From an uncultured Candidatus Saccharibacteria bacterium (lineage in GTDB: Bacteria; Patescibacteriota; Saccharimonadia; Saccharimonadales; JACQNP01): DNA of 63,712 nucleotides. Both the position numbers and the translations under genes were made by a program. Positions 4,005 to 47,599 of this stretch are shown here, piece by piece. The stretch's first letter is position 1. Each line of letters starts with the position of its first letter. The DNA is taken from contig CAZSZC010000004.1 in the NCBI GenBank assembly GCA_964610775.1, positions 1 through 63,712 on the forward strand, written 5' to 3'. The notes beneath the pieces were generated by a model. The model was not told the origin of the DNA. It did not search any database and worked only from the letters and a program-made list of their open reading frames with translations.

Positions 4005-6080
<2,076 letters not shown>

Positions 6081-6124
6081 TTAATAGTCATTAGCATTTT
6101 CTAACAAAAATAAAAGAAGAAAAA

Positions 6125-29676: not shown

Positions 29677-31538
29677 TACTTCTGAGCTTTCATTCCATAT
29701 AGTGAAGTTTTGTTAGTTCTAGCTTTTGCTTCGTTAGCTACAGTTTTTAGGAATATTTCGGTGTCGACTGGTTCATCCTTTTCCTGAACCACTATGTCCT
29801 TACGAATACGCGGAATAACTTTGCTAGTTTCAATTTCCTTCTCACCGATTACTACTGTGTATGGCACTTTCCAAACTTCAGCCTCGCGAATCTTTTTACC
29901 AACTGATTCATTACTATTATCTACATTGATGCGAATACCCAGCTCTTTAGCCCGCTCAACTATGCCATCCGCAAACTTAATAGTCGTATCTTCTTGATTG
30001 ACCGTAATTAGACGCACTTGTTCTGGGGCTAACCAAACTGGAAAACGCCCGCCAGTGTGTTCTATATAGACACTCAGGAAACGCTCAATCGAGCCCAGAA
30101 TTGCTTTGTGCACCATAGCAGGTCGATGTTTTTGGCCATCTTCACCGGTATATTCTAGTTCAAACCTTTCTGGCTGAACGAAGTCTAACTGAACTGTTGC
30201 GCACTGCCATTTTCGACCAAGTGCATCTGATACATAAATATCAATCTTAGGACCGTAAAATGCAGCTTCACCAAGTTCAACTTTGTAATCAAGTTCTTCT
30301 TCCTTAGCTATCTTCTCCAAAGTCTTCTGGGCTTTATCCCATACTTTTGGATCACCGAAGTAATTATCGCCATCGTCACGGAACGACAAATCGACACTCA
30401 GTGGCATATCAAGCACCATATACATTTGCTTAACTACGCTTATGATCCCACGCATTTCTTCTTCTATTTGATCATGACGCACAAATGCATGTGAGTCGTC
30501 CTGTGTCAGTGCTCTCACCCGAGACAAACCATGAAGTTCACCACTTTTTTCATCACGATACATTGTCGTTGTTTCCATATAACGAATAGGTAGATCGCGG
30601 TAACTCCTAGGGCGGGAAGCGTAGATCTGAGCCACATGCGGGCAGTTCATCGGCTTCAACATAAATTTGTCATCTGACTCAACACTAGAGACATCAAAAC
30701 GCTCAGGATACTTATCATAGTGGCCTGAGACTTTATAAAGTTCAGTTCGTGTCATATGAGGTACCCAAACCGCTTCATAACCAATACCTCGCTGTAGTTC
30801 TTCTGAGAATCTTACCAGCTCATTTCTAAGAATTGTTCCACGAGGAGTAAATAGGGGTAGGCCAGGCCCGACTAGATCGGAGATCACAAATAGGTCAAGT
30901 TCTTGGCCAAGCTTACGGTGATCGCGCTTTTTAGCCTCTTTCAACATTTCTAGATGCTTATCGAGCTCTTCCCTGGTTTCGAAAGCCACACCGTAGAGGC
31001 GTTGCATTTGCGGGTTTTTCTCGTTACCACGCCAGTAAGCACCGGCTACTCGCATAAGCTTGAATGGACCAACCTTGCTGGTCTTTTCTACATGGGGACC
31101 ACGACACAAATCTGTAAAATCACCGTTTTGATAGAACGATACTTCTTCTACTTTACTATCACCTTCGGTAATAGTTCCCAGCTCGTCAGCATCAAGATCT
31201 TTGGCTACAGTGGTACCAGCACGCTTCAAGTCATTAAGTAATTCCTCTTTATATGGCTGATTGCTATCCTTAGCCCATTTTATAGCCTTATCGACCGGCA
31301 TGGTCGATCGCTCAAACTTTTGGCCTAGTTTGATAATCTTCTTCATTTCCTTTTCGATTTTCGGGAAATCATCTTCCGAGATTTTCACATCTCCTAGATC
31401 AATATCATAGTAAAAGCCATTCTCAACTACCGGACCAACACCTAGCTTAGCCTCCGGCCAAAGCGTGGTTACAGCCGTCGCCATTATATGAGCCAAACTA
31501 TGCCTCATTGCATGTAAGTTGTCTTGTTGATCAGCCAT
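29676..31538 (-). CDS. thrS: Threonine-tRNA ligase (no TGS domain)
   Basis: RHSLAHIMA, DLCRGPH, RDHRKLG, KPMNCP, GLSRVR, AFYGPKID, QLDF, HKAILGSIERF. Confidence 0.99.
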   Translation of the reverse strand: MADQQDNLHAMRHSLAHIMATAVTTLWPEAKLGVGPVVENGFYYDIDLGDVKISEDDFPKIEKEMKKIIKLGQKFERSTMPVDKAIKWAKDSNQPYKEELLNDLKRAGTTVAKDLDADELGTITEGDSKVEEVSFYQNGDFTDLCRGPHVEKTSKVGPFKLMRVAGAYWRGNEKNPQMQRLYGVAFETREELDKHLEMLKEAKKRDHRKLGQELDLFVISDLVGPGLPLFTPRGTILRNELVRFSEELQRGIGYEAVWVPHMTRTELYKVSGHYDKYPERFDVSSVESDDKFMLKPMNCPHVAQIYASRPRSYRDLPIRYMETTTMYRDEKSGELHGLSRVRALTQDDSHAFVRHDQIEEEMRGIISVVKQMYMVLDMPLSVDLSFRDDGDNYFGDPKVWDKAQKTLEKIAKEEELDYKVELGEAAFYGPKIDIYVSDALGRKWQCATVQLDFVQPERFELEYTGEDGQKHRPAMVHKAILGSIERFLSVYIEHTGGRFPVWLAPEQVRLITVNQEDTTIKFADGIVERAKELGIRINVDNSNESVGKKIREAEVWKVPYTVVIGEKEIETSKVIPRIRKDIVVQEKDEPVDTEIFLKTVANEAKARTNKTSLYGMKAQK

Positions 31539-31559
31539 TTGTCACTCCTTTTGTCGAAA

Positions 31560-31738
31560 TTAATAAACGCGCCCGATAAATACACATGACTATGTAATTA
31601 TGTAGCGCGTCTCGGGCCCAAAATCATACGTCGCACAATTTTAGGCGGTTCCACCGGACTTTTACTTATGATGCTCGCGTTACGTACGCTGCAACTGCCA
31701 ACGGAGCTCCGTAGTTGGTGAATCTACCTCATCGCTCA
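31560..31738 (-). promoter_or_regulatory. T-box riboswitch upstream of thrS
   Basis: GTCCGGTGGAACCGC (31645-31659); antiterminator partners ATTTTGGGC and CCGAGAC; competing GCCCGA/TCGGGC stem; TATACT at 31745-31750. Confidence 0.75.
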
Positions 31739-31771
31739 TTTACAAGTATAACACGCCCCTGTTAAACAAAT

Positions 31772-31811
31772 AAAAAAGTTGAGTATTCTCGCAATGACAC
31801 TCAACTTTTTT
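31772..31811. terminator. 13-bp inverted repeat, terminator-like
   Basis: AAAAAAGTTGAGT/ACTCAACTTTTTT. Confidence 0.75.
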
Positions 31812-32104
31812 TAGAGAGAGGTGTTGTACTAACACCTCGCAGAACTTCACCGTACCCATGACTATACACCCGCTAGTACAATAATGCTAGTACTTTATTG
31901 GTGTTTTATTTACATTAAAGTGGGGTTTCAAATTTAACACCATATTTGGTATAGTTCCCTTTTACTCTACTTTTTGTTATCCTAGTGTTTGCCAAGTTTT
32001 CTAAACCAAGCATAGCTGTTTAGAAAACTTACAGGAGGAAACGACTAGAGTGTGGAAGAAAAGTAAGTAGTTACTTTTCGGAAGTCGACCGTCGATTCCG
32101 ACGA

Positions 32105-32181
32105 GGGCGATTAGCTCATTTGGCTAGAGCGCAGCATTGACGTTGCTGAGGTGATAGGTTCGAATCCTATATCGCCCACCA
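32105..32181 (+). tRNA. tRNA-Val(GAC)
   Basis: Acceptor GGGCGAT/ATCGCCC, anticodon loop TTGACGT, T-loop TTCGAAT, CCA. Confidence 0.97.
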
Positions 32182-35000: not shown

Positions 35001-36599
35001 CTATTCCTTGTCCTTTTTGACAAACTTAACGGTTGCGTCAAATGTATCTAGATACCATTTAAACATTAAACGCGTCTGCGAGTTGAGAGCCGCAAGCGAA
35101 TTAAAGGCAATGCTAGTGACCGGCAAAAGCACCCACTGCAAGGTCATAAAAATAGTTCTATGTGCCTTGTAGCGCTTCGGCTTGGGTGGTAGAACCTTAA
35201 AGCTAAGGAATAATGTGATAAATATGCCAAGCATTGCAACTGTCTGAATACGACTGGCAATAATTGGCAGCTGATTGGCCGTGAAGTCATCAGTGTTAAT
35301 TAAGAGTGGCACAAACGCGCCGAAAGCCAAAATTAGAGGTGCCGTAGCCCAACTTACATGCCCCTCAAGGAGTCGCAAGAACTTAAAGGTTACATCAACC
35401 TTGGAAATTTTATTCTTAGTAAAAAAGCCTTTTTCGGCAACATATGCTACATCTGAAGCTCCCCATGCCCAGCGACGAAGTTGAATAAATTGTTGCTTGA
35501 ACGTCTCTTTGTAAGTTGAGGCCAGAACCGCATCCTGATAGACAGGCACTAACATTGGATAAACATTGTAATTGCCGTCGAACCGGAAATAAGATCGCCA
35601 AAATTGGTGACCATCTTCAACAATTGTTCGAACACTTAAATAATTTGTATCTATCATGCCCTGCATACTTTGAGCGTGAGACGAAAAGTTACGAATCATG
35701 TGTGGACGCATAGATAGCACTACATTCCAAAATGAGTTACCGGTCGCAATCACTCGCATAAGCGCTGGTGCATCCCAAATATTGTTGGTGTAAATTGGCA
35801 CCGGTTGATACGAGGAATGAACTGGGTCAAGAGTCGAAGCCACCATGTAGGTTAGAATGGCAAAATAGTTTGGATGCGGCCTATTATCAGCATCAAACAT
35901 CGTAACCATAACTGATGACGGATCGATATTCTTCTTGTCTAAATACTCCTTCAATCTAGCGCAACCCCAGGTACCATTCGGTCCTTTGCCCTTCACCTCA
36001 TTAGCTAGGTCTTTCGGATGCTTGGTGGCAAATGCATGCCGAAAATGCTGACCATATTCTTTGATCAATGCCTGGCATTCTTTTTCTATTTGGAGTCCGG
36101 CGCGTTCTTCATAAGTAAGCACAAGGATAGTCTTTTTTATATCGAATTTAGAGTCGATAATATACTGGATCGTTGGTTCGAGTATCGCCCTTCCGTCGGT
36201 GTGTGTAGGAATAATAATAGCGTGTACGACTTCGTTGGGTTTTAACGGAACAGGCGATGCCTGAATTCGTGCGATATTTTTCTTGTGCCACGCCGGAGAA
36301 TTAGGACTGCTCACTTCCAACTTTTCCAGATCTTCTGTTAACACTGCCCAGTCGAGTTTTTCATACTTTTTCAGCTGTCTCCAGCCTTGAATGACTCGAA
36401 CATTTAACCCGATTGCACGAGCAAACCAGATCAGAAAGAAACCTAAAATAAACATAGCAGTTAGACGAGGATCTAATAAACTAACGGCAAAAGGCAATAT
36501 CAATATACTCCAGCTCAGGAACCCAGGTAGCACCTCAAAGAACCTATAACGTCTGGTCTTCTCTGAGTTAAGCGGGATCTCTAGATCATTAATGTTCAT
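35001..36599 (-). CDS. Membrane glycosyltransferase family 2
   Basis: GKGPN, DAD, EDGHQFWR, QLRRWAWG (QxxRW); multiple TM helices. Confidence 0.92.
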   Translation of the reverse strand: MNINDLEIPLNSEKTRRYRFFEVLPGFLSWSILILPFAVSLLDPRLTAMFILGFFLIWFARAIGLNVRVIQGWRQLKKYEKLDWAVLTEDLEKLEVSSPNSPAWHKKNIARIQASPVPLKPNEVVHAIIIPTHTDGRAILEPTIQYIIDSKFDIKKTILVLTYEERAGLQIEKECQALIKEYGQHFRHAFATKHPKDLANEVKGKGPNGTWGCARLKEYLDKKNIDPSSVMVTMFDADNRPHPNYFAILTYMVASTLDPVHSSYQPVPIYTNNIWDAPALMRVIATGNSFWNVVLSMRPHMIRNFSSHAQSMQGMIDTNYLSVRTIVEDGHQFWRSYFRFDGNYNVYPMLVPVYQDAVLASTYKETFKQQFIQLRRWAWGASDVAYVAEKGFFTKNKISKVDVTFKFLRLLEGHVSWATAPLILAFGAFVPLLINTDDFTANQLPIIASRIQTVAMLGIFITLFLSFKVLPPKPKRYKAHRTIFMTLQWVLLPVTSIAFNSLAALNSQTRLMFKWYLDTFDATVKFVKKDKE

Positions 36600-36961
36600 T
36601 ATTTAACACCGTAAATCAAAGCGTTGCTTACAATTATAGAGAGAACTAATAGCAACACACCCATGCTGAGTATGGCTAACGAATACTGGCGACGAATTGA
36701 ATATAACTTAATACTCATGATGCTGTGTATGGCCATAACCATGCCGGCAAAAATTATAAAACTCATATAAGTTAGGACAGATGTGCTGTAAGTATAAGCG
36801 CTAAGTCTACCCAGATAGGGCCTATATTGAATAAGGTGAAGCTTGCCTCCACTACCCTGACCAATAAATACAGAAACGACCTCTAGAAGAACCAGAAATA
36901 AACTAGCACTTAAAAGCAAGAGAACAATTCGATCATGATAATACTTTTTTGGTATGTGCAT
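36599..36961 (-). CDS. Hypothetical membrane protein, 120 aa
   Basis: Three TM segments; coupled to the GT2 gene. Confidence 0.75.
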   Translation of the reverse strand: MHIPKKYYHDRIVLLLLSASLFLVLLEVVSVFIGQGSGGKLHLIQYRPYLGRLSAYTYSTSVLTYMSFIIFAGMVMAIHSIMSIKLYSIRRQYSLAILSMGVLLLVLSIIVSNALIYGVK

Positions 36962-37026
36962 GGTTTGAGATAATTATAGAACTTCTTGCCGTTTTGAACT
37001 AGTTATGTGTACGATCTTATAAATTA

Positions 37027-37101
37027 TGGTGCGGATGGAGGGAGTCGAACCCTCGTCTCAGCCTTGGGAAGGCTACATAATAGCCGTTATACGACACCCG
37101 C
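37027..37101 (-). tRNA. tRNA-Gly(CCC)
   Basis: Acceptor GCGGGTG/CATCCGC, anticodon loop TTCCCAA, CCA. Confidence 0.96.
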
Positions 37102-37113
37102 TAGCAGTGGTGA

Positions 37114-37620
37114 TTATATTATATCTTGGATGACAGTGAATACCTTTTGAAAATCTTCTTCGGCATCATTACCATTTAGTTTAATAGCAACGTCGCACGT
37201 TGATTCATAAAAGGGTCGCCGACGTTCCTGCAATCCCGCCAGCCCACCTTCGTTCAAGCCGATAATTCGTTCAAGCCGATCTGGGCCGAGCCGTATCTCG
37301 AGTTGAGATGAATCCACGTCAAGAAAAATAACTTTTCCTGTAGACCTTAGGTAAGTCATGGACTCGGCTTGTAACACCATGCTTCCACCGGTTGCTACAA
37401 TCAAACCAGCGGCTTTTATACTCTTAGCGGCGCGTATTTCAGCGTCATTAAAGTATTCAACCCCATGGTTACTAATGATTTCGGTTAAAGACATCCCTTG
37501 TTGTTGCTCTATTACATCATCAGTGTCAACAAACCCAATATTCAATTCGCGAGCCAATCCACGCCCAATCGTAGATTTGCCACTTCCGGGCATGCCGGTC
37601 AAGATAATATTACGTCTCAT
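37114..37620 (-). CDS. aroK: Shikimate kinase
   Basis: GMPGSGKSTIG, FVDTD, F..AE, IVATGGS, RRPFY. Confidence 0.88.
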   Translation of the reverse strand: MRRNIILTGMPGSGKSTIGRGLARELNIGFVDTDDVIEQQQGMSLTEIISNHGVEYFNDAEIRAAKSIKAAGLIVATGGSMVLQAESMTYLRSTGKVIFLDVDSSQLEIRLGPDRLERIIGLNEGGLAGLQERRRPFYESTCDVAIKLNGNDAEEDFQKVFTVIQDII

Positions 37621-37628
37621 GATCTATG

Positions 37629-37704
37629 TGGAGCCGATGAGCGGGGTCGAACCGCTGACCTACGCGTTACGAGTGCGTTGCTCTACCAACTGAGCTACAT
37701 CGGC
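37629..37704 (-). tRNA. tRNA-Thr(CGT)
   Basis: Acceptor GCCGATG/CATCGGC, anticodon loop CTCGTAA, CCA. Confidence 0.96.
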
Positions 37705-37752
37705 ATTTACTCTTTCGAACTGATTTATTATAGCAAAGCTAAAGTTGGTATT

Positions 37753-37986
37753 TTAGTAGCTATCTAGTTCGCTACGTATCTTATCTAAGAGCTTAACGTC
37801 ATCACGTCTAACACCTTCAACTTCAATAAGCGCCTCTCCAACGCTGCTATCCATAAGATTGTTTTCAACAAATTGTTTGATCCTTGTTTGTCGCCTCTTT
37901 GAATCTGGATCCAGATCCATGAGTGATGCATGAATTTCTTCACGCATCCTCTGCCTTGCTTCCGCCGGCTTATCTTCGTAAGTCAT
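37753..37986 (-). CDS. Small hypothetical protein, 77 aa
   Basis: Charged helical open frame. Confidence 0.55.
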   Translation of the reverse strand: MTYEDKPAEARQRMREEIHASLMDLDPDSKRRQTRIKQFVENNLMDSSVGEALIEVEGVRRDDVKLLDKIRSELDSY

Positions 37987-38023
37987 AATTCTAGCTTACT
38001 CTACTTTTGTGAATAAAAACCGA

Positions 38024-38401
38024 CTATTTGCTATTTAGGTTGCGTTTTCTCAAACGGAATCTACTAGCATTTTTGGGCTTTTCGTTTGATTCAGTTTTTT
38101 CAATATCTTTTTTTATATCAGTTAGTGGAACTTGGCCAGTGCGAGTAGCGACACGCCTTAAGCGTTGAGTAATATCAGTATCATCATGTTCTACTGTCTG
38201 GCTGTGCTCAACCTTATTCGTAGGGACAGCATCCACAACTTCAAGCACCGCGCCCTGTGTATCCGATGGCAAGCGACCATGTTTCTGTAGAACTTCTCGA
38301 ATAGTATCACCCAGACTACTAGTGAAACTTTCAGGGAATATATTTGAATCCGATACTTCGTCAACAAACTGTGGTGTACCATTTTCTGATTCAGAAGTCA
38401 T
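38024..38401 (-). CDS. Hypothetical protein, about 125 aa (start at MTSESENG)
   Basis: TATAAT 9 nt upstream of the ATG at 38401. Confidence 0.6.
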   Translation of the reverse strand: MTSESENGTPQFVDEVSDSNIFPESFTSSLGDTIREVLQKHGRLPSDTQGAVLEVVDAVPTNKVEHSQTVEHDDTDITQRLRRVATRTGQVPLTDIKKDIEKTESNEKPKNASRFRLRKRNLNSK

Positions 38402-38518
38402 AATTAAAATATTATACAACCTATGCGTAGTTTTGTAAATTAGACGTTGCGTTTTTTCTCTGTTCTTGGTATGATCCTCTCTGTTCTTATCGCAGATTAG
38501 GTGATGAACAAACAATGC

Positions 38519-38596
38519 GGGCTCGTGGTGTAGATGGCCTAACATGCCTCCCTGTCACGGAGGAGATCGCCGGTTCGAATCCGGTCGGGCCCGCCA
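38519..38596 (+). tRNA. tRNA-Asp(GTC)
   Basis: Acceptor GGGCTCG/CGGGCCC, anticodon loop CTGTCAC, T-loop TTCGAAT, CCA. Confidence 0.97.
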
Positions 38597-38639
38597 AACT
38601 AAGAAAATCACCCAAAGTGGTGGTTTTTTTAGTTTGATG
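38588..38639 (+). repeat. 52-bp direct repeat copy 1 (tRNA-Asp 3' end + terminator; att-like)
   Basis: GGCCCGCCAAACTAAGAAAATCACCCAAAGTGGTGGTTTTTTTAGTTTGATG, identical to 39574-39625. Confidence 0.97.
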
Positions 38640-39573
38640 GTCGTTTCGGTTTTGACTCGGCGATAGCGAATGAAATGAGCAAGATCGCCGGTGCGGTGGA
38701 GCGAGGACACGCGCAGAAGCTTGCTTGGAGCATGCCACAACGGAAAAGGACGAAGTCCGCTATCCGGTCGGATCTGCCAATCCGTATTTCGGTTGCCAAC
38801 AAGCAACTATCGACGGCGACAAAATAGTTCCCCACCCCGGAACTCACAGTCAGTCATGTTGACAATATGCCATCTTTATGATAGTATCTTTTTATAGTTA
38901 ACAAAAATTTATAGTTAACAAAAATAAAAATAAGGAATTTAAACTATGAGCCAAAGCCTAACTGAATCTGCACGAGAAGTTGTAGCAAACGCACAAGATA
39001 AGAAAGCTAGTGATCAGCTTGGAAATGTGGATTTGCGCAATTCTGGCTATGCTGAGGGAGCTTCATCTAAAGTCATTGCACATGCTTCAGCTGAAAGTCC
39101 AGATGGAATTAAGTCAAAAATAACTACTGAGTTCAAAAGTAACGGGCGCACAGGAAGTCATTACGATGGTAATCAGGCAGATCTAGAAAGACAGGGCGAG
39201 CAAGCAACTGCACATTATAAAGCTGCAGAAGGCTTTGTTTACCCTGATTCAGGTCCAGGTGTTCCAGATTATATTGATGGAGGAGTTGAAACTACTGTTG
39301 TAAGGACAGATGAATCTGGCAACGAAGTGTATCGTCATACATCTAAAGACCCTGCCTTTGCCGCAAAGGTCGGCAAAGTTGCAGCAAACAGGATCAACGA
39401 TCAATTTGATGACGGAGAAAAACAAATAGCTGCTTAAATGTAGTCCACTCACGTTAATCAGCAACTGATTGGACCGTCTCAGCGACGGGTCAACTCCATG
39501 AAGTAGAAATTGCCCTTTCGAGGGCTTTTTCGTTTCTAGAGAATACAAAATAGTTCCAGACCTCTAAAGTTAC
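38597..39573 (+). mobile_element. Putative integrase-less cassette 1 inserted at tRNA-Asp
   Basis: Bounded by the 52-bp repeats (986-bp period); holds a GC-rich element, promoter, one ORF and a terminator. Confidence 0.55.
38946..39437 (+). CDS. Hypothetical protein, 163 aa (cassette 1 cargo)
   Basis: TTGACA-17-TAGTAT promoter, AAGGA SD, UUCG-loop terminator at 39512-39530. Confidence 0.85.
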   Translation: MSQSLTESAREVVANAQDKKASDQLGNVDLRNSGYAEGASSKVIAHASAESPDGIKSKITTEFKSNGRTGSHYDGNQADLERQGEQATAHYKAAEGFVYPDSGPGVPDYIDGGVETTVVRTDESGNEVYRHTSKDPAFAAKVGKVAANRINDQFDDGEKQIAA

Positions 39574-39625
39574 GGCCCGCCAAACTAAGAAAATCACCCA
39601 AAGTGGTGGTTTTTTTAGTTTGATG
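39574..39625 (+). repeat. 52-bp direct repeat copy 2
   Basis: Identical to 38588-38639. Confidence 0.97.
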
Positions 39626-39916
39626 TCCGTCTGGTTTTGAGTTGGTGATCAGCGAATAAAATGAGCGAGATCGCCGAGTTCGGTCATCAAGCTCGCGCGC
39701 AGAAGTTCACTTCGAGCACGAATACAGATGTGCGCAGTCGGTCGGACCCGCCAGGTAGCGCTTCAACTCATATCCCGCTTAAGTCAGGCCCGTCAAAGCA
39801 TAAGCACTCCCACAAGATGCGTTTGTCCATTTGTGTTACAACAACTAAATTGACAAACCGACTATCTTATGCTAGTATTAATATATAAGTTAAAAAGTAA
39901 GCAAAGGAAAACAAAA

Positions 39917-40420
39917 ATGCCAGAAAAAGTACATGATCAAATCGCAGAAGCATACCGCTCTATTGATGACATAGAACAGTTAGCTATAAAAACCGGAGTT
40001 GGAGAAGAAGCCCCAGGCCAAGATGGCGTCGCGTATGCGAGTGTTACTAATGAGGGTAGTCATTATATTAATAGAGGGCTTGTAACGGACGATGCTGCAA
40101 TAGCAGTAGAAGATGATCTGATAAGCCAAAATCATAAAGACTGGAAACGAACTGATCCTATAGGTCCTCGTTATGCGAAAACATATGAAACAACTGGCAC
40201 ATATGATACATCTCTTCAAAGAGATGGCAAACTGTATGGTGATACAGTAGTGAAAAGAGCTGACGGCAAAGGCAGTGTTTATCAAGCTACCCTGAAAGGA
40301 GAAAATGGCGAAAAAGCTGCTGTTATTATCGCCAATCGGGCTGCGCGGCGAGTTCGTGAGGCTATAGTTGATCGTACGGTAAAGTTAGCAGACGAATTAA
40401 AACAAGAAGATAAGAACTAG
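39917..40420 (+). CDS. Hypothetical protein, 167 aa (cassette 2 cargo; distant paralog of 38946-39437)
   Basis: TTGACA-17-TAGTAT promoter, AAGGA SD, terminator at 40438-40470; shares GSHY and TVVxxxDxxGxVYxxT segments. Confidence 0.85.
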   Translation: MPEKVHDQIAEAYRSIDDIEQLAIKTGVGEEAPGQDGVAYASVTNEGSHYINRGLVTDDAAIAVEDDLISQNHKDWKRTDPIGPRYAKTYETTGTYDTSLQRDGKLYGDTVVKRADGKGSVYQATLKGENGEKAAVIIANRAARRVREAIVDRTVKLADELKQEDKN

Positions 40421-40638
40421 CGAATTGTATTAATGATAAATAGCCTCGTTGCGGTCGGGGCTATTTTTTTGTCGATACTCAACATATTCATAATACAATC
40501 TGTGATCCTCGCATATCAATACCGATTATCGCTCATTTATTAGTCTTCTAATGAGCACACCAGAGCAAGAACAAATAGTTACGGGAACAACTATAGATAT
40601 TATAGAATTACCGACGTATTTTTTGCTATGATGAGCAC

Positions 40639-41040
40639 ATGAAGTCATTCATATCTTTAGATGAGCTGAAACCCGGTGGCCAGTCAGCACTTTACCCGAG
40701 CTGGCTTACTAATATGTATGAGGTCAAAGAGTTCATTGGCCGAGCCGGAAAAATGCAATCCGACCAAATTAGAGTCGGGATTGTGACACTGAAGCACGGT
40801 GCAAATTACCCTAGTCACAGCCACCCAGCACCAGAGATATATATTCAGATAAGTGGCAAAGTTAAGTGGAAAGTTGGAGATGAGACAAGATTAATAAGTA
40901 GCATCACTGCGATTAACATACCCTCCGGTACGTCACACGCCATGCGTAACATGGGTAATATAGAGGCACAATTGATTTACCTTTGGTATGCACCGGACAA
41001 CGACAAAAGCTTACTTGAAGAGGATGCACAACTCGATTAA
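40639..41040 (+). CDS. Cupin protein, DMSP-lyase (DddQ/DddW)-like motif
   Basis: YPSHSHPAPEIY..SG and IPSGTSHAM cupin motifs; TGcTATGAT 6 nt before the ATG. Confidence 0.8.
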   Translation: MKSFISLDELKPGGQSALYPSWLTNMYEVKEFIGRAGKMQSDQIRVGIVTLKHGANYPSHSHPAPEIYIQISGKVKWKVGDETRLISSITAINIPSGTSHAMRNMGNIEAQLIYLWYAPDNDKSLLEEDAQLD

Positions 41041-41129
41041 ACATGTCAAAATAACATATTCTGTATTGTTCACCAAAATGGATTCTCGACGAATGGCTGT
41101 ATTCATTACCAAGCAAGATAAGTTGTAGG

Positions 41130-43028
41130 CTAAAGTTTTATGAGGGTGCGCATTTCGACTGTGTTTTCAACTGGCAACTTAAAGTAATCACTTGGGTTGG
41201 TGGCACTATTGGACATTATACAAAAGAGCGATTTACGCCAGCGTGCCATAGTATGACTTTTGGTTGGCACAACCTTCGCCAGCGATACAAAATATGACGC
41301 AGCGTATGGATCAAAGTCTATCTCTGAACTAAGCTTGCGCAGCGATTCAAGCGTCTTGGGAATATTAATGGAGTCGTGATATCCATAATGGAGAGTTAGA
41401 TGGCTAAGTCCATCCGTGGCATTGCCAAGATCATCAAATACCGCCCTTTCGTCTCGAGACACGTGGGCAATGTTCCTTACTTGCACCGAAACAATTGTCG
41501 CCTTTTCGTGAAGCTCATGTAGTTGCTCAACGGCTGCATGCAGAGCCAATGGGGTTAAGTCACTGTGATGCCCAATATAAACTGCATGACCCGGAACTCG
41601 ACTAATTGGCGGCGACCTACTATCTAGCTCCTCAACGTAAGCCTTTAACGAGCCCTCCTTGGCGCTTCGTTCTTTGTTAATAACTTTGCGTCCCCTAAGC
41701 CAAGTTGTAATTATTATCATAACCCCAATCGCTACTGTTAACGGGAACCAGCCACCGTGAGTTAGTTTTAGAGAACTAGACACAACAAAAACCAAATCAA
41801 TCATCAGGAATATTGGCATAAGTACATACAAATACCATGGCGATTTACGCTGAATACTACGAGCAGTAACTGCGAACAATACTGTTGTCATAGCTATAGT
41901 AATACTAACCGCCAGCCCAAATGCTGCCGCCAATTTTTCTGATCCTCCAAAAATCAACACAAGCAGAACCACGCCCATAAACATCATCAGATTAATGAAC
42001 GGCAAATAGACCTGCCCTGCCCGAGAATCAGAAGTATGCTTTATAAGCATCTTGGGTAAAAAATCTAGGTGTACTGCTTGGCGCGTCAACGAAAACGCAC
42101 CAGAAATCACTGCTTGAGAAGCGATTAGGGTAGCTGCCGTTGCCAACATCACCACAGTAACCTGCAGTGAACTCGGGAAAAGCAAGAGTAGTGGGTTGCT
42201 AATTGTCGATGAGTTGTTCAACAATAGCGCGCCTTGACCCATATAGCACAGAGTTAATGCCGGAAATACAACCACAAACCAGGCTTTTGCAATTGATTTA
42301 CGACCGAAATGCCCCATATCAGCATATAGAGCTTCGGCGCCAGTTATCGCTAGTATCACGGCCCCCATAGCAACAAAGGCTAGAAGAGGCTGGCCAGCAA
42401 CGAAGCGGTATGTGGACATGGGAGATAGAGCATTAATAATGTTCGGGTGCTGCCAAACTTGCCAGGCTCCGCCAGCTCCAATTGTTAAAAACCAAACTAG
42501 CATGATCGGGCCGAAGAAGTTCCCGATAGTCCCCGTCCCATACTTTTGAACAAAGAACAAAAACGCAAGGATTATTAGAGTCACAGGTATGACAAACCTA
42601 GATAGTTCCGGGGCAATTACGTGAACCCCTTCGACAGCCGATAATACCGAAATAGCTGGGGTTATTAGGCTATCGCCATAGAATAAGGCAACGCCAATCA
42701 GCCCTAGAATTATAAAAAAGCTGATCACTTTCTTTGGCAATTTACTATTCTTGATCAGCCCAATAAGCGCGATTATGCCACCCTCGCCTTCGTTGTCGGC
42801 ACGCATAATGAAATATATATACTTAATCGATACGACGAGTGTTATAGACCAAAATATTAGAGATATAATGCCGTAAACATTGGTAGTATTTATGGTCAGA
42901 TGCTGCCCTAATGGGCCAAATATAGCCGGCAAGGCATAGAGCGGACTAGTACCAATATCTCCAAAAACAATACCCAGCGCACCAAGTGCAAGCAATGATG
43001 TAGCTGTTTTTGTTTTATTCACAAGCAT
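41130..43028 (-). CDS. kup: Kup/HAK/KT potassium transporter
   Basis: GDIGTSPLY, ADNEGEGG, GDSLITPAISVLSAVEG, TGAEALYADMGHF, ASQAVISGAFS. Confidence 0.97.
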   Translation of the reverse strand: MLVNKTKTATSLLALGALGIVFGDIGTSPLYALPAIFGPLGQHLTINTTNVYGIISLIFWSITLVVSIKYIYFIMRADNEGEGGIIALIGLIKNSKLPKKVISFFIILGLIGVALFYGDSLITPAISVLSAVEGVHVIAPELSRFVIPVTLIILAFLFFVQKYGTGTIGNFFGPIMLVWFLTIGAGGAWQVWQHPNIINALSPMSTYRFVAGQPLLAFVAMGAVILAITGAEALYADMGHFGRKSIAKAWFVVVFPALTLCYMGQGALLLNNSSTISNPLLLLFPSSLQVTVVMLATAATLIASQAVISGAFSLTRQAVHLDFLPKMLIKHTSDSRAGQVYLPFINLMMFMGVVLLVLIFGGSEKLAAAFGLAVSITIAMTTVLFAVTARSIQRKSPWYLYVLMPIFLMIDLVFVVSSSLKLTHGGWFPLTVAIGVMIIITTWLRGRKVINKERSAKEGSLKAYVEELDSRSPPISRVPGHAVYIGHHSDLTPLALHAAVEQLHELHEKATIVSVQVRNIAHVSRDERAVFDDLGNATDGLSHLTLHYGYHDSINIPKTLESLRKLSSEIDFDPYAASYFVSLAKVVPTKSHTMARWRKSLFCIMSNSATNPSDYFKLPVENTVEMRTLIKL

Positions 43029-43141
43029 TATTATAACTGATCCACTCTCAAGCCTATCAAATACTAGCTTTGACCAATGTACGCTAATTGACTTTTTGTC
43101 TACTTTCTGCTACTATTAATATGTCAGTTAAAAAAACAAAA

Positions 43142-44080
43142 ATGCCAGAAACAGCACCACATCCAACTATAGAACAAATAGATGACCCAATGGCTCGTAT
43201 GACGGAGGCCGATAAAGCTTGGGTAGAACAAGTTGGAGCAAAGCTAGGCGAGCAACTCCTTGGCGGGACAATACAATTAGAACTACCCTATCCGGAAACA
43301 CCCAACATAGGTGATGCCAAACCCAGCAACACTAGCCTAGACACTACAAATGTAGCAACAACTAATATGTTTATGGACGCTGTTGATGTAGGTAAGCAAA
43401 CGGAAGCCGCCTCAAGGGAAACAATAGAATCCCAACAAAATGAAGCTTGGGATAACCACACTGGTGCAAATGCAAAGCAACAACTAGATGAAGCTGAAGA
43501 AAGAAGTAAACAAGCAGATGCCGAGATGGAGGCAACTATTGAAGAATCTATGACAGATAAGCTTACAGGACTTAAAAACCGCGAGGCATTAGAGTTAGTA
43601 ATTAGCAAAGTTGGTATCGAGGGAATAAGTGGCCTAGCGCTAGTAGATTTGAACGATTTTAAAGGTGCAAATGACAACTTCGGACACCGTGCCGGTGATC
43701 AAGTACTTCAAAGATTCGCAGCCTTAGCTCAAAAGCGATTGAGCGGTGACGAAAACATGCCAGGAAGTGAACTAGGTGAGATTTTCCGTACAGGTGGCGA
43801 CGAATTCGCAATTGCCTTTTATGGTGGTAGGAAATTAGAAGACATACAGCAAGCCATTACCGACATAGAGGCTGAAACGTCCGCTATAACTTTTGGGCCA
43901 GAAGACAACCCACTTCCGGAAGCTAAACGAACTACCTGGACGGCTGGTTCAAGTATTGGGTTTGCTCCAAGCAATGAGTTTTCTGATCTTAGCACTGGTC
44001 TCTCACTAGCCGATCAAGACATGTTTGCAAGAAAAGAAGCCAACCGCCCGGAAGGTTACGTCGGCCGAGCCGCTGCCTAG
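43142..44080 (+). CDS. Diguanylate cyclase (GGDEF) with an acidic coiled-coil N-terminus
   Basis: DKLTGLKNR, DLNDFKGANDNFGHRAGD, RTGGDEF, SIG, AD..MF. Confidence 0.92.
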   Translation: MPETAPHPTIEQIDDPMARMTEADKAWVEQVGAKLGEQLLGGTIQLELPYPETPNIGDAKPSNTSLDTTNVATTNMFMDAVDVGKQTEAASRETIESQQNEAWDNHTGANAKQQLDEAEERSKQADAEMEATIEESMTDKLTGLKNREALELVISKVGIEGISGLALVDLNDFKGANDNFGHRAGDQVLQRFAALAQKRLSGDENMPGSELGEIFRTGGDEFAIAFYGGRKLEDIQQAITDIEAETSAITFGPEDNPLPEAKRTTWTAGSSIGFAPSNEFSDLSTGLSLADQDMFARKEANRPEGYVGRAAA

Positions 44081-46687: not shown

Positions 46688-47599
46688 ATGCAATTTCAAA
46701 AAGCCAAGGTCGATTTTCTAGAATACTTAGAAATTGAACAGAACCGATCGCAAAAAACCATAGCTAATTATGACCATTATCTTACGAGACTTAGTGATTT
46801 TGCGGGTGATATTAAAGTTTCGGATATAGATCCAGAGCTTATTCGTAAATGGCGACTATGGCTGAATAGACTAGGTACTAACACTAGTGATGAACTGCAA
46901 AAAACAACTCAAAATTATCATCTAATCGCACTCAGAAGTTTTCTGAAATTTTGTGCCAAGCGCAGCATACCGGCCCTGTCTGCCGACAAGATAGAACTGG
47001 CTAGAACCACCAGAAAGCAAGTTACCTTCCTAAATCCCGATGAGTTACAGAGAATGTTTGATCAACCAGACATATCCACCCTCAGTGGCCTAAGAGATCG
47101 AGCGATATTGGAACTGCTTTTTAGTAGTGGGTTGCGTGTTTCAGAACTAGTCGGGCTTGATAGAGATCACATCAATGTCAAACGGCGTGAATTTATGGTT
47201 CGGGGTAAGGGTCAAAAGGATCGCCCGATATTCATAAGCCAAGAAGCGGCTGATTGGGTAACAAAATACCTAGATAAGCGCACCGATACCACCAAACCAC
47301 TATTTATTCGCTACAGTGGACGCAAAACAGTTGATTTGAGTGGTAATTTTCACCGCCTAACCGCGCGTAGCGTACAAAGAATGGTTGCACGCTATGCACT
47401 ACTAGCCGGCATCACTAAACACGTCAGCCCTCACACACTCCGACATTCATTTGCAACTGATTTACTTATGAACGGCGCAGATCTACGCTCAGTCCAAGCT
47501 ATGCTTGGCCACAGCAATATATCAACTACCCAAATATATACTCACGTAACAGATCCACACCTCAAATCGGTTCACGAAAAATTTCACCGCAAAACTTAA
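46688..47599 (+). CDS. Tyrosine recombinase, XerC/D family
   Basis: RDRAILELLFSSGLRVSEL, GKGQK, HTLRHSFAT, LGH, TQIYTH: full catalytic set. Confidence 0.95.
   Translation: MQFQKAKVDFLEYLEIEQNRSQKTIANYDHYLTRLSDFAGDIKVSDIDPELIRKWRLWLNRLGTNTSDELQKTTQNYHLIALRSFLKFCAKRSIPALSADKIELARTTRKQVTFLNPDELQRMFDQPDISTLSGLRDRAILELLFSSGLRVSELVGLDRDHINVKRREFMVRGKGQKDRPIFISQEAADWVTKYLDKRTDTTKPLFIRYSGRKTVDLSGNFHRLTARSVQRMVARYALLAGITKHVSPHTLRHSFATDLLMNGADLRSVQAMLGHSNISTTQIYTHVTDPHLKSVHEKFHRKT

What the first reader, a model, noticed from the sequence alone, without database searches (positions are those of the whole stretch)
38519..40470. Tandem integrase-less cassette array at tRNA-Asp: att repeat + GC-rich element + strong promoter + paralogous cargo gene
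Seen: a 52-bp exact repeat (last 9 nt of tRNA-Asp plus its terminator) recurs 986 bp later. Each copy is followed by a roughly 230-nt GC-rich element that is homologous but diverged (GGTTTTGA; AGCGAATxAAATGAGCxAGATCGCCG; CGCGCAGAAG; CGGTCGGA), then TTGACA-17-TGnTAGTAT at nearly the same distance (271 vs 276 bp from repeat start), one ORF and a terminator. CAAAATAGTTCC occurs at 38820 and again at 39546, just before repeat 2. The two ORFs align by eye (GSHY; ETTVVRTDESGNEVYRHTSK vs DTVVKRADGKGSVYQATLK). Known: tyrosine integrases duplicate tRNA 3' ends. Inference: exact identity at att with decay beyond it fits repeated site-specific insertion of one family of 1-kb self-expressing cassettes mobilised in trans, an integron-like array on a tRNA. 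No integrase lies inside; the nearest is 46688-47599.
Basis: partly seen in the sequence, partly recalled or inferred. Interest (0 to 1): 0.78.

Follow-up and report, generated by a model that had tools for sequence, protein, structure and literature searches.

The report
Gene-cassette stack behind tRNA-Asp
Behind the aspartate tRNA gene of this tiny Saccharibacteria genome lies a stack of small, self-expressed accessory-gene cassettes left by mobile elements that use a large serine recombinase. The stack is interleaved with copies of a widespread folded "tRNA-trailer" element. It is a miniature, tRNA-anchored version of the island arrays known from other bacteria.

Summary
There is a 52-bp exact repeat (38588-38639 = 39574-39625), two diverged GC-rich blocks, two TTGACA-17-TAGTAT promoters, two ORFs and their terminators.

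The 986 bp between the repeats is a true insertion. Four metagenome relatives (95-96% identical) read tRNA-Asp, repeat, GC block 2, ORF2, cupin, without it.

The motif before repeat 2 (AAATAGTTCCAGA-N13-GGCCCGCCA) bounds one to five small same-strand cassettes behind tRNA-Asp. It occurs in 14 of 201 genomes of the order. In the 6-7 kb full-length elements it is the far end of an island whose large serine recombinase (LSR) gene overlaps tRNA-Asp. The window holds a recombinase-less cassette (ORF1), a collapsed LSR-island scar, and older decayed sites before ORF2 and the cupin gene.

- The enzyme is an LSR, not a tyrosine or Xer integrase.
- The repeating unit is not "att + GC element + gene".
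- ORF1 and ORF2 are not demonstrably paralogous.
- The GC-rich element is a separate family. It is a covarying structured module found in 120 of 201 genomes, 1-19 copies each. It trails many tRNA genes and ends in an 18-nt copy of that tRNA's 3' end, like the E. coli tRNA-linked repeats.

The closest known systems are the Dehalococcoides ssrA islands and SCC. I rate this a new variant of a known kind.

The parts
38519..38596 (+). tRNA-Asp(GTC), intact, CCA encoded. Its last 9 nt (38588-38596, GGCCCGCCA, 'O') are the recombination core.
   Evidence: ARAGORN; Rfam tRNA 58.8 bits.
38588..38639 (+). Direct repeat copy 1: O (9 nt) plus hairpin/terminator H (43 nt).
   Evidence: The 52 bp are identical in the relatives' empty site.
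38640..38779 (+). tRNA-trailer unit 1 ('GC-rich element 1'). It has a 5' part; a T-stem 5' strand of tRNA-Asp (GATCGCCGGT); a ~75-nt conserved core that replaces the middle of the T-loop; and an 18-nt tail at 38762-38779 (ATCCGGTCGGATCTGCCA, 15/18 identical to tRNA-Asp positions 59-76).
   Evidence: Covariance model R1 hit at 38684-38779, 102 bits, E = 2e-26; tail match; covariation.
38780..38818 (+). Left-arm (P') remnant of a G050-type LSR island, abutting the pseudo-tRNA tail. On the minus strand, 38741-38806 still encodes the last ~22 residues of the recombinase.
   Evidence: 26/32 identical to the sequence after tRNA-Asp in G050; tblastn of LSR aa 496-517 gives 59% identity, E = 0.001.
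38822..38856 (+). Decayed right arm plus core (P-O): AAATAGTTCCCCACCCCGGAACTCACAGTCAGTCA. This closes the collapsed island scar.
   Evidence: 24/35 to the P-O site at 39548-39582, with the first 10 nt exact (my alignment by eye).
38859..39573 (+). ORF1 cassette. It comprises a promoter (38859-38887); a 17-bp perfect tandem duplication in the leader (38891-38924); ORF1 (38946-39437, 163 aa, near-orphan); a terminator (39512-39525); and the right arm P (39545-39573, ACAAAATAGTTCCAGACCTCTAAAGTTAC).
   Evidence: The P arm is shared with 18 sites in 14 of 201 genomes, against 0 in the control.
39574..39625 (+). Direct repeat copy 2: O plus H. This is the resident tRNA-Asp trailer displaced by the insertion.
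39626..39753 (+). tRNA-trailer unit 2 ('GC-rich element 2'). It is a degenerate member that lacks the last hairpin. Its tail is at 39736-39753 (AGTCGGTCGGACCCGCCA, 15/18). It is resident, because it is present in the empty-site relatives.
   Evidence: R1 hit at 39670-39753, 27.8 bits, E = 4e-5.
39791..40470 (+). ORF2 cassette. It comprises a decayed core GGCCCGTCA (39791-39799) followed by AAGCATAAGCAC, a left end seen in other arrays; a promoter (39850-39878); ORF2 (39917-40420, 167 aa); and a terminator (40438-40466).
   Evidence: ORF2 homologues: 92% in the relatives, and 51% at a different, non-array locus.
40573..41040 (+). Collapsed att remnant (40573-40597, AAATAGTT|ACGGGAACAACTATAGA) followed by a cupin gene (40639-41040). 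This is probably the oldest cassette of the stack.
   Evidence: A cupin is also cargo in another array (L112). The remnant call rests on inspection only.

Best explanation
The 3' end of tRNA-Asp is the landing site of a family of integrative elements of Saccharimonadales that are moved by a large serine recombinase (LSR). Crossover occurs within the last 9 nt of the tRNA (GGYCCGCCA).

Full-length elements are 6-7 kb. Their LSR gene is convergent with the tRNA and overlaps it. Their far end is a conserved ~26-nt arm (AAATAGTTCCAGA..GTTAC). Each integration rebuilds the tRNA and pushes older inserts outwards.

Most of what is seen today are recombinase-less units of 0.3-2 kb. Each is bounded by arm plus core, and each has its own promoter and one to three same-strand accessory ORFs.

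In this window the stack reads, in order:
1. tRNA-Asp
2. hairpin + trailer unit 1
3. a collapsed LSR-island scar
4. the ORF1 cassette
5. core + hairpin + trailer unit 2
6. the ORF2 cassette
7. the cupin gene

The 986 bp between the 52-bp repeats entered (or left) as one composite block, by a single crossover inside the 52-bp identity. This is accretion and mobilisation of neighbouring units. No cognate LSR is in this genome, so the units are now either fixed or dependent on an enzyme supplied in trans.

The GC-rich elements are not cassette parts. They belong to a separate, order-wide family of structured modules that trail tRNA genes and end in an 18-nt copy of that tRNA's 3' end. They are analogues of tRNA-linked repeats. 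Most likely they are transcribed, or fold as a single strand, in the sense of the tRNA.

Shown: the anatomy, the insertion polymorphism, the shared junction motif, the link between LSR and tRNA-Asp, and the covariation.

Inferred: catalysis by the LSR, mobilisation in trans, and the RNA nature and function of the trailer units.
For: - Empty site. Four metagenome samples at 95.5-96.3% identity read tRNA-Asp, the identical 52 bp, unit 2, ORF2, cupin.
- Shared junction motif. P-O bounds 1-5 cassettes of 308-2073 bp behind tRNA-Asp in G003, G049 and 15 GTDB species. It occurs at 18 sites in 14 of 201 genomes, against 0 in the reversed control.
- Cassette layout. In the 23 small cassettes the largest ORF is on the tRNA strand; it begins within about 100 nt of O in most, and a TTGACA often follows O directly. 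Cargo is diverse: RelB/YafQ, PIN, GNAT, CDF, EamA, cupin and unknowns. Only one homologous pair was found among 35 ORFs.
- Full-length islands carry an LSR with Resolvase + Recombinase + Zn_ribbon domains. Examples are G050 (7.1 kb) and L116 (6.2 kb). In 9 of 10 loci with an LSR at least 39% identical, the gene overlaps the tRNA-Asp 3' end. LSRs at about 30% identity sit at tRNA-Ser and tRNA-Leu.
- Both ends of that island type are present in the window: 38780-38811 is 26/32 identical to the G050 left arm, an LSR C-terminal remnant is detectable at E = 0.001, and the right arm is present.
- The own genome has the same layout at tRNA-Arg(GCG). There an LSR gene lies next to the tRNA, followed by a 12.3-kb island, then the arm GTTCCA..|GGTGTACCA, a hairpin, a trailer unit and a 17/18 tail.
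- Trailer family. Model R1 matches in 120 of 201 genomes, 1-19 copies each. 94% of cells are paired and 21 of 23 pairs show compensatory change, against 30-40% paired in slid controls. GU/UG pairs number 116 against 19 AC/CA. 34 of 44 hits have a same-strand tRNA upstream, about 25 of them 59-95 nt away, and the 18-nt tail is 18/18 identical in 16.
Against: - No LSR gene lies in or near the window's array. The genome's two LSRs are only 20-22% identical to the tRNA-Asp clade.
- No circular or excised form was seen.
- The left ends of the small cassettes are not conserved; they are usually just a promoter. A canonical two-half-site attP for an LSR is therefore not evident.
- The 986-bp event could equally be RecA-mediated.
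- ORF1 has no close relative elsewhere, so its cassette has not been seen in a second context.
- Single-sequence folding of the GC elements is no more stable than shuffles (z = +0.6 and -0.4). No promoter is apparent between hairpin H and the unit.
Confidence: 0.7

Rival explanations
1. The small units were never mobile as such. They are deletion relics of successive full-length LSR islands. Each integration was followed by loss of the recombinase module, so the 'array' is a graveyard and not a cassette platform.
For: The window does contain a collapsed island scar: P' directly followed by a decayed P-O at 38780-38856. Some LSR genes in relatives carry in-frame stops. Cassette left ends are not conserved. 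Older sites in the window are decayed.
Against: None of 23 small cassettes in 16 loci (the window included) retains an LSR fragment at E <= 1e-5. The main ORF is on the tRNA strand in all of them, begins within about 100 nt of O in most, and a promoter often follows O directly. Random deletions would rarely produce this layout. P-O sites stay about 90% conserved while the cargo is unrelated.
Confidence: 0.2
2. The 986-bp block arose by an old local tandem duplication of 'trailer + gene'. The 52 bp were later kept identical by gene conversion or by selection.
For: The two GC elements and the two promoters are homologous and similarly spaced.
Against: Relatives at 95-96% identity lack the block. 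The ORFs are not detectably related. The left border of repeat 2 is the P arm, which is shared with other genomes' arrays and with LSR islands. Identity drops abruptly on both sides of the 52 bp.
Confidence: 0.04
3. This is an integron-like system run by a tyrosine recombinase (the XerC/D-type gene at 46688-47599). That enzyme would recombine folded single-stranded sites.
For: Tyrosine integrases commonly target tRNA 3' ends. The Xer-type gene gives weak, sub-threshold hits to integron-integrase models. The GC elements are folded modules that rebuild a T-arm-like helix.
Against: The P-O junctions do not fold on either strand (z about 0). The recombinase found inside intact elements at this site is an LSR in every case. 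The Xer-type gene scores as XerC/XerD and sits between ndk and a pilus gene, 6 kb beyond the array. The cassettes have their own promoters.
Confidence: 0.04
4. The tandem arrangement is an assembly chimera of two strains, joined through the 52-bp repeat.
For: The genome is a 25-contig assembly. Other populations carry only the short form.
Against: Common final assembler k-mers exceed 52 bp (my own knowledge). The block's internal anatomy (P arm exactly at the repeat border) is what a real integration gives. The same tandem logic occurs in many independent assemblies.
Confidence: 0.03

Closest known systems
Dehalococcoides ssrA-specific genomic islands (McMurdie et al. 2011, PMC3146451), and the related SCC / pseudo-SCC composite islands of staphylococci
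   Same: Both are tandem islands stacked behind a single-copy, essential RNA or protein gene. Each island is bounded by a short direct repeat of the target's 3' end. A CcrB-like large serine recombinase gene lies next to attL on the reverse strand. Some tandem members lack a recombinase and may be mobilised with, or by, their neighbours (accretion).
   Different: Here the target is a tRNA (Asp, with sister clades at Arg, Met, Ser and Leu). The repeat core is only 9 nt. Most units are 0.3-2 kb with one to three ORFs and their own promoter, against 10-60 kb. I recognised no second small serine recombinase or integration module.
Tycheposons of Prochlorococcus (Hackl et al., bioRxiv 10.1101/2020.12.28.424599)
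   Same: Cargo-carrying elements integrate at a few tRNA genes of a streamlined genome. Newer elements push older ones outward. Partial tRNA repeats and degenerate remnants fill the island.
   Different: 910 of 937 of those elements use tyrosine recombinases, and many carry replication modules. Here the enzyme is an LSR, no replication genes were seen, and the units are far smaller.
Integron gene-cassette arrays
   Same: Both are one-directional stacks of small, mostly single-gene units of unrelated accessory function, including toxin-antitoxin pairs and GNAT genes. A conserved recombination site sits at each 3' boundary, and insertion is next to a fixed anchor.
   Different: There is no IntI, no attI/Pc and no folded attC. 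The junction sites do not fold. The cassettes bring their own promoters. The anchor is a tRNA gene and the enzyme is a serine recombinase.
E. coli tRNA-linked repeats (TLRs; Egan and Landy 1978; PMC8144298)
   Same: For the GC-rich element: it lies directly downstream of a tRNA gene on the same strand, and its last 18 nt repeat the 3' end of that tRNA. TLRs show 18-19 bp. Function is mostly unknown.
   Different: There is no sequence relation to the E. coli TLRs and no Rfam match. This family has a strongly covarying ~75-nt core placed inside a copy of the T-arm. It occurs behind at least 13 tRNA species and in 60% of the sampled genomes of a whole order.

Membership tests
LSR-integrated tandem genomic islands (ssrA-GI / SCC type) | A large serine recombinase gene lies inside the element, next to the target gene. 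| tested here: not met
   In the window there is no LSR gene, only a 22-residue C-terminal remnant at 38741-38806. The feature is met in the full-length relatives: G050, L116 and 9 of 10 LSR loci overlap tRNA-Asp. The window therefore holds non-autonomous derivatives or relics, not an autonomous member.
LSR-integrated tandem genomic islands (ssrA-GI / SCC type) | Each unit is bounded by a direct repeat of the target's 3' end, and the target gene is regenerated. | tested here: met
   GGCCCGCCA occurs at 38588 and 39574, with decayed copies at 38771, 38848, 39745 and 39791. tRNA-Asp is intact.
LSR-integrated tandem genomic islands (ssrA-GI / SCC type) | Presence/absence polymorphism exactly at the repeats (empty site). 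| tested here: met
   Four metagenome samples lack the 986 bp, with one copy of the 52 bp.
LSR-integrated tandem genomic islands (ssrA-GI / SCC type) | An excised circular intermediate and recombinase-dependent integration. | not testable with these tools
No free attP was found in viral contigs.
Integron | An IntI-type tyrosine recombinase with adjacent attI and Pc. | tested here: not met
   The only tyrosine recombinase nearby is of XerC/D type. Its integron-integrase model scores are 134 against a 265 cut-off and 85 against 435. It lies 6 kb away, beyond housekeeping genes.
Integron | Cassettes end in attC sites that fold as imperfect hairpins. | tested here: not met
   Three P-O junctions folded as ssDNA (the window's on both strands) give MFE of -0.6 to -2 kcal/mol and z of 0.06 to 1.2.
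Integron | Cassettes are mostly promoterless and are expressed from Pc. | tested here: not met
   TTGACA-17-TAGTAT lies in front of ORF1 and ORF2. TTGACA follows O directly in many cassettes of other arrays.
tRNA-linked repeats (TLR) | The element lies immediately downstream of a tRNA or rRNA gene, on the same strand. | tested here: met
   Unit 1 starts 44 nt after tRNA-Asp. 34 of 44 family members have a same-strand tRNA upstream, about 25 of them 59-95 nt away.
tRNA-linked repeats (TLR) | The last 18-19 bp are identical to the 3' end of the upstream gene. | tested here: met
   15/18 in both window copies, and 18/18 in 16 family members. The definition is taken from PMC8144298.
tRNA-linked repeats (TLR) | Sequence homology with the E. 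coli TLR family. | tested here: not met
   No Rfam family matches at E <= 10. I did not compare directly with E. coli TLR sequences. The relation is one of architecture, not shown descent.
Tycheposon | A tRNA-targeting element with a tyrosine recombinase (mostly) and a replication module. | tested here: not met
   The G050 island has an LSR, a HigB/HigA-like pair, an ABC-F ATPase and unknowns. Pfam found no primase or helicase.

The most novel reading that the evidence does not exclude
Saccharimonadales possess a true gene-capture platform on tRNA genes. Promoter-bearing, recombinase-less mini-cassettes carry only a ~35-nt arm-plus-core site. They are excised and inserted next to the tRNA by a large serine recombinase supplied in trans by a visiting full-length element. 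This would be a serine-recombinase counterpart of the integron in ultra-small episymbionts. In the same reading, the neighbouring trailer units are expressed tRNA-minihelix mimics, or single-strand recombination modules, that create extra landing sites.
Probability: 0.3. Interest if true: 0.8.

Novelty: new variant of a known kind. Interest (0 to 1): 0.62.

Why it matters
Saccharibacteria have genomes under 1 Mb. I found no published description of how they exchange accessory genes at tRNA loci; my two literature searches on this were not exhaustive.

This locus shows one concrete route. A clade of serine recombinases is specialised on tRNA 3' ends, and compact stacks of single-gene, self-expressed cassettes lie behind tRNA-Asp. 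The stacks carry toxin-antitoxin pairs, acetyltransferases, transporters and many unknowns, and they differ between close relatives.

If the small units prove mobilisable in trans, the system would be a second, mechanistically unrelated invention of the integron principle. It would also offer a short, defined att site and enzyme pair for genetic tools in Patescibacteria.

The trailer element is a separate, abundant, strongly covarying module with no Rfam family. It ties the old E. coli 'tRNA-linked repeat' puzzle to a whole bacterial order.

Tried and rejected
- Rfam scan of 36500-42500 at E <= 10. Nothing matched the GC element, and nothing relevant matched the third genomic copy.
- tmRNA, permuted-tRNA and ribozyme readings. 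ARAGORN and Rfam gave no support.
- A reverse-transcriptase origin of the 18-nt tail (tRNA primer copied up to m1A58). RVT_1 is absent from the own genome and from most of the tested genomes richest in units, including those with 18-19 copies. Rejected as a resident mechanism.
- An IS200/605- or TnpB-guide-like reading of 'scaffold + 18-nt flank'. I considered it but did not search for a transposase or TnpB, so it remains open.
- Pfam and NCBIfam on ORF1 and ORF2. No family was found.
- Word-based homologue search. ORF1 found only itself, and ORF2 found three relatives. Exhaustive phmmer for ORF1 found five remote relatives.
- AlphaFold2 on both small alignments. pLDDT was 39 and 45, too poor for a fold search.
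- Viral-contig scan for the P-O site. Six hits, all coding repeats.
- Read-based tests (empty site, circles, expression).
- Single-sequence folding of the units. They are no more stable than shuffles, so the case for structure rests on covariation alone.
- 12-mer scan for AATAGYTCCAGA. It was only about 2.5-fold enriched over the control. The longer P-O pattern was needed for specificity.
Full report
**1. Observation**

tRNA-Asp(GTC) lies at 38519-38596. Its last 9 nt plus a 43-nt hairpin/terminator (38588-38639) recur exactly at 39574-39625, 986 bp later.

Each copy is followed by a GC-rich block of about 56% GC. The two blocks align only in patches. After each block comes a TTGACA-17-TAGTAT promoter with an extended -10 TG (38859-38887 and 39850-39878). 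Then come one ORF (38946-39437, 163 aa; 39917-40420, 167 aa) and a terminator-like hairpin. CAAAATAGTTCC occurs at 38820 and 39546.

The claimed ORF similarity is not significant. BLASTP gives E = 0.84. After I collected relatives of each protein, profile-profile comparison gave E = 0.11 over the same C-terminal beta-hairpin/helix motif. AlphaFold2 models were too poor to help, with pLDDT of 39 and 45.

**2. The 986 bp is a real insertion**

An exact-match scan for the hairpin found a metagenome contig, L108 from ERZ724512. It is 95.4% identical to 39574-40421, and in it tRNA-Asp runs straight into the same 52 bp, GC block 2 and ORF2.

Looking up the ORF2 orthologue found three more samples with the same short form: ERZ724543, ERZ724507 and ERZ724545. 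One of these contigs extends through the cupin gene to 41116.

So 'tRNA-Asp, hairpin, GC block 2, ORF2, cupin' is the resident arrangement. The block 38640-39625 (equivalently 38588-39573) is present only in this genome. Identity between the flanks is limited to the 52 bp and falls off sharply on both sides. That is what a single crossover between a circle and the chromosome leaves behind.

**3. What bounds the block**

Directly left of repeat 2 lies ACAAAATAGTTCCAGACCTCTAAAGTTAC. The same arm, followed by GGYCCRCCA, turned up behind tRNA-Asp in other genomes:
- G003, in the same family, has three successive units of 751, 516 and 583 bp.
- G049 has one unit of 674 bp.
- Fifteen species representatives of the GTDB collection, nearly all labelled Saccharibacteria, Saccharimonadales or Patescibacteria, have it. 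They carry up to four intact sites after the tRNA, with units of 308-2073 bp.

A stricter pattern (TAGYTCCAGA-N11-14-GGYCCRCCA) hits 18 sites in 14 of 201 genomes of the order. The reversed control hits none.

The main ORF of every small unit lies on the tRNA strand. It begins within about 100 nt of the 9-nt core in most units, and a TTGACA box often follows the core directly.

The cargo is heterogeneous. It includes RelB/YafQ and PIN toxin-antitoxin genes, two GNAT acetyltransferases, a CDF and an EamA transporter, a cupin, an exoribonuclease-like protein and many proteins with no family. Only one weak homologous pair was found among 35 ORFs.

**4. The enzyme**

In G050 the same arm closes a 7.1-kb island. 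The first gene of that island, convergent with tRNA-Asp and overlapping it, is a 517-aa large serine recombinase with Resolvase, Recombinase and Zn_ribbon_recom domains. L116 has a 6.2-kb island with a 60%-identical enzyme.

Across 201 genomes, 69 carry LSR homologues at E <= 1e-30. For the ten best (39-100% identity), nine genes overlap the 3' end of tRNA-Asp. Two 30%-identical enzymes sit at tRNA-Ser and tRNA-Leu.

The window's own genome has no member of the tRNA-Asp clade; its two LSRs are 20-22% identical. One of them shows the same design at tRNA-Arg(GCG) on contig 6. There the order is tRNA, LSR gene, a 12.3-kb island, the arm ..ACGTTCCAATTCGTAACACCCA, the 9-nt core GGTGTACCA, a hairpin, a GC-rich unit and a 17/18 copy of the tRNA-Arg end. 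A third such arm lies about 3.9 kb from tRNA-Met on contig 11.

All three arms carry GTTCCA 20-21 nt before the core. The tRNA itself has GTTCGA (T-loop) 15 nt before it. As I recall from the literature, serine integrases contact attP about 5 bp further out than attB. I did not test this here.

The tyrosine recombinase at 46688-47599 scores as XerC/XerD and lies beside ndk. I see no reason to link it to the array.

**5. Anatomy of the window**

- Right after the pseudo-tRNA end of GC block 1 (38762-38779) comes ATCCGTATTTCGGTTGCC.... This is 26/32 identical to the sequence that follows tRNA-Asp in G050. On the minus strand it still encodes the last ~22 residues of the recombinase (E = 0.001).
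- Thirteen bases on, 38822-38856 is a decayed arm plus core, 24/35 identical with the first ten exact. So 38780-38856 is a collapsed island scar.
- The ORF1 promoter follows at once, as in cassettes elsewhere. The ORF1 unit ends in the intact arm at 39545-39573.
- After GC block 2 lies a further decayed core, GGCCCGTCA at 39791 (GACCCGCCA in the ERZ-sample relatives, GGCCCGCCA in the JGI contig L148). It is followed by AAGCATAAGCAC, a left end seen in other arrays. It precedes the ORF2 promoter.
- A collapsed site (AAATAGTT|ACGG..CTATAGA, 40573-40597) precedes the cupin gene. That last call rests on inspection only.

The 986-bp block is therefore composite: hairpin, GC block 1, scar, ORF1 cassette. 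It must have been assembled at a tRNA-Asp locus before it moved as one piece. This is the accretion-mobilisation behaviour discussed for tandem ssrA islands (PMC3146451). Whether the last step was catalysed by an LSR or by RecA acting on the 52-bp identity cannot be told from sequence.

**6. The GC-rich element is something else**

A third copy of its core lies on contig 6. BLASTN found it in 29 of 61 relatives, at up to 93% identity across families.

A covariance model built from 17 copies matches 120 of 201 genomes, with 1-19 copies each.

On 45 distinct sequences, 94% of cells are paired and 21 of 23 pairs show compensatory changes. Slid controls give 30-40% paired. That alignment was fitted to the model, which favours the structure. 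The independent MAFFT alignment had already shown 13 covarying pairs.

G-U pairs outnumber A-C mismatches 116 to 19, so the fold belongs to the strand that has the sense of the tRNA. Folding energy alone is unremarkable.

Context is strikingly regular. 34 of 44 copies have a same-strand tRNA upstream, about 25 of them 59-95 nt away. At least 13 tRNA species are involved. The last 18 nt of the unit repeat tRNA positions 59-76, with 18/18 identity in 16 cases. The bases just 5' of the core repeat the T-stem 5' strand of that same tRNA. The core thus sits where the middle of the T-loop would be in a partial tRNA copy.

In the own genome 11 of 35 tRNA genes have such an 18-nt tail copy downstream, attached to at least four other core types.

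No reverse transcriptase is present in most of the unit-rich genomes I tested.

I rate 'expressed structured RNA with a tRNA-like 3' end' at about 50% and 'DNA-level or single-strand recombination module, or a minimal integrative unit' at about 35%. Either way, the pseudo-tRNA end offers a secondary landing site, and the scar at 38780 sits at exactly that place.

**7. Comparison with known systems, and verdict**

The closest known systems are the Dehalococcoides ssrA islands and SCC elements. Both have an LSR beside attL on the reverse strand, tandem islands bounded by repeats of the target's 3' end, and recombinase-less members. Tycheposons share the tRNA-anchored stacking in a streamlined genome.

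The differences here are the tRNA target, the 9-nt core, and above all the miniaturisation into single-gene, promoter-bearing units. These resemble integron cassettes in form but fail every defining feature of integrons.

My two literature searches found no description of this system in Saccharibacteria. Earlier unchecked notes of this scan, from other genomes, point the same way.

I file it as a new variant of a known kind. The enzyme, the unit definition and the paralogy claim do not.

Noticed in passing
own genome contig C6:29877-42425 (outside the window): This is a complete example of the same design at tRNA-Arg(GCG). The order is tRNA, an LSR gene on the reverse strand (about 30495-32170), a 12.3-kb island, the arm ..GTTCCAATTCGTAACACCCA, the core GGTGTACCA, a hairpin, a GC-core trailer unit, and a 17/18 copy of the tRNA-Arg 3' end.
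   Followed up: partly
own genome: C2:99560-99730(-), C5:41600-41765(-), C6:45446-45575(+), C3:11970-12176(-), C10:34446-34822(+), C11:7700-7960(-), C7:5190-5358(+), C6:29010-29192(+): At least four further families of small structured modules lie behind tRNA genes (Gln, Arg-TCT, Ser-CGA, Leu-GAG, Lys, Met, Thr-TGT, Ser-TGA). Each ends in an 18-nt copy of that tRNA's 3' end. Several share an AGTCC-AGTG-GACT hairpin and a 5' GGATTCGAAC that can pair with the ..CGA|ATCC junction. In all, 11 of 35 tRNA genes in this genome have such a trailer.
   Followed up: partly
window 38891-38924: A perfect 17-bp tandem duplication (TTTATAGTTAACAAAAA, two copies) lies in the leader between the ORF1 promoter and the start codon.
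   Followed up: no
window 39850-39926 and 43088-43151: The ORF2 promoter/leader and that of the GGDEF gene are near-identical in stretches (..GCTAGTATTAATAT.. against ..GCTACTATTAATAT..; AAACAAAAATGCCAGAAA spans both start codons). A first-stage note says the same. The GGDEF gene may have acquired a cassette-type expression module.
   Followed up: partly
L124 (GCA_040384045.1, JAWVHH010000456.1) 6001-6576: The only distant homologue of ORF2 (51% identity) sits between prmC and prfA, not in a tRNA-Asp array. The gene family therefore also exists as an ordinary chromosomal gene.
   Followed up: no
L116 (CAWDVI010000003.1), reverse-complement coordinates 7412-7610: After a 6.2-kb LSR island, the displaced tRNA-Asp trailer carries an intact GC-core unit whose tail is 18/18 identical to tRNA-Asp. 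It is immediately followed by a TTGACA..TATAAT promoter. This shows the resident 'hairpin-unit-tail' module being pushed outward as a block.
   Followed up: partly
window 38762-38779 against 38678-38690: The three substitutions that distinguish tail 1 from tRNA-Asp (GGGCCCG to GGATCTG) make it complementary to AGATC just 5' of the unit's T-stem strand. This would give a minihelix-like closing stem with a 3' GCCA overhang. It may be compensatory change or it may be chance.
   Followed up: no
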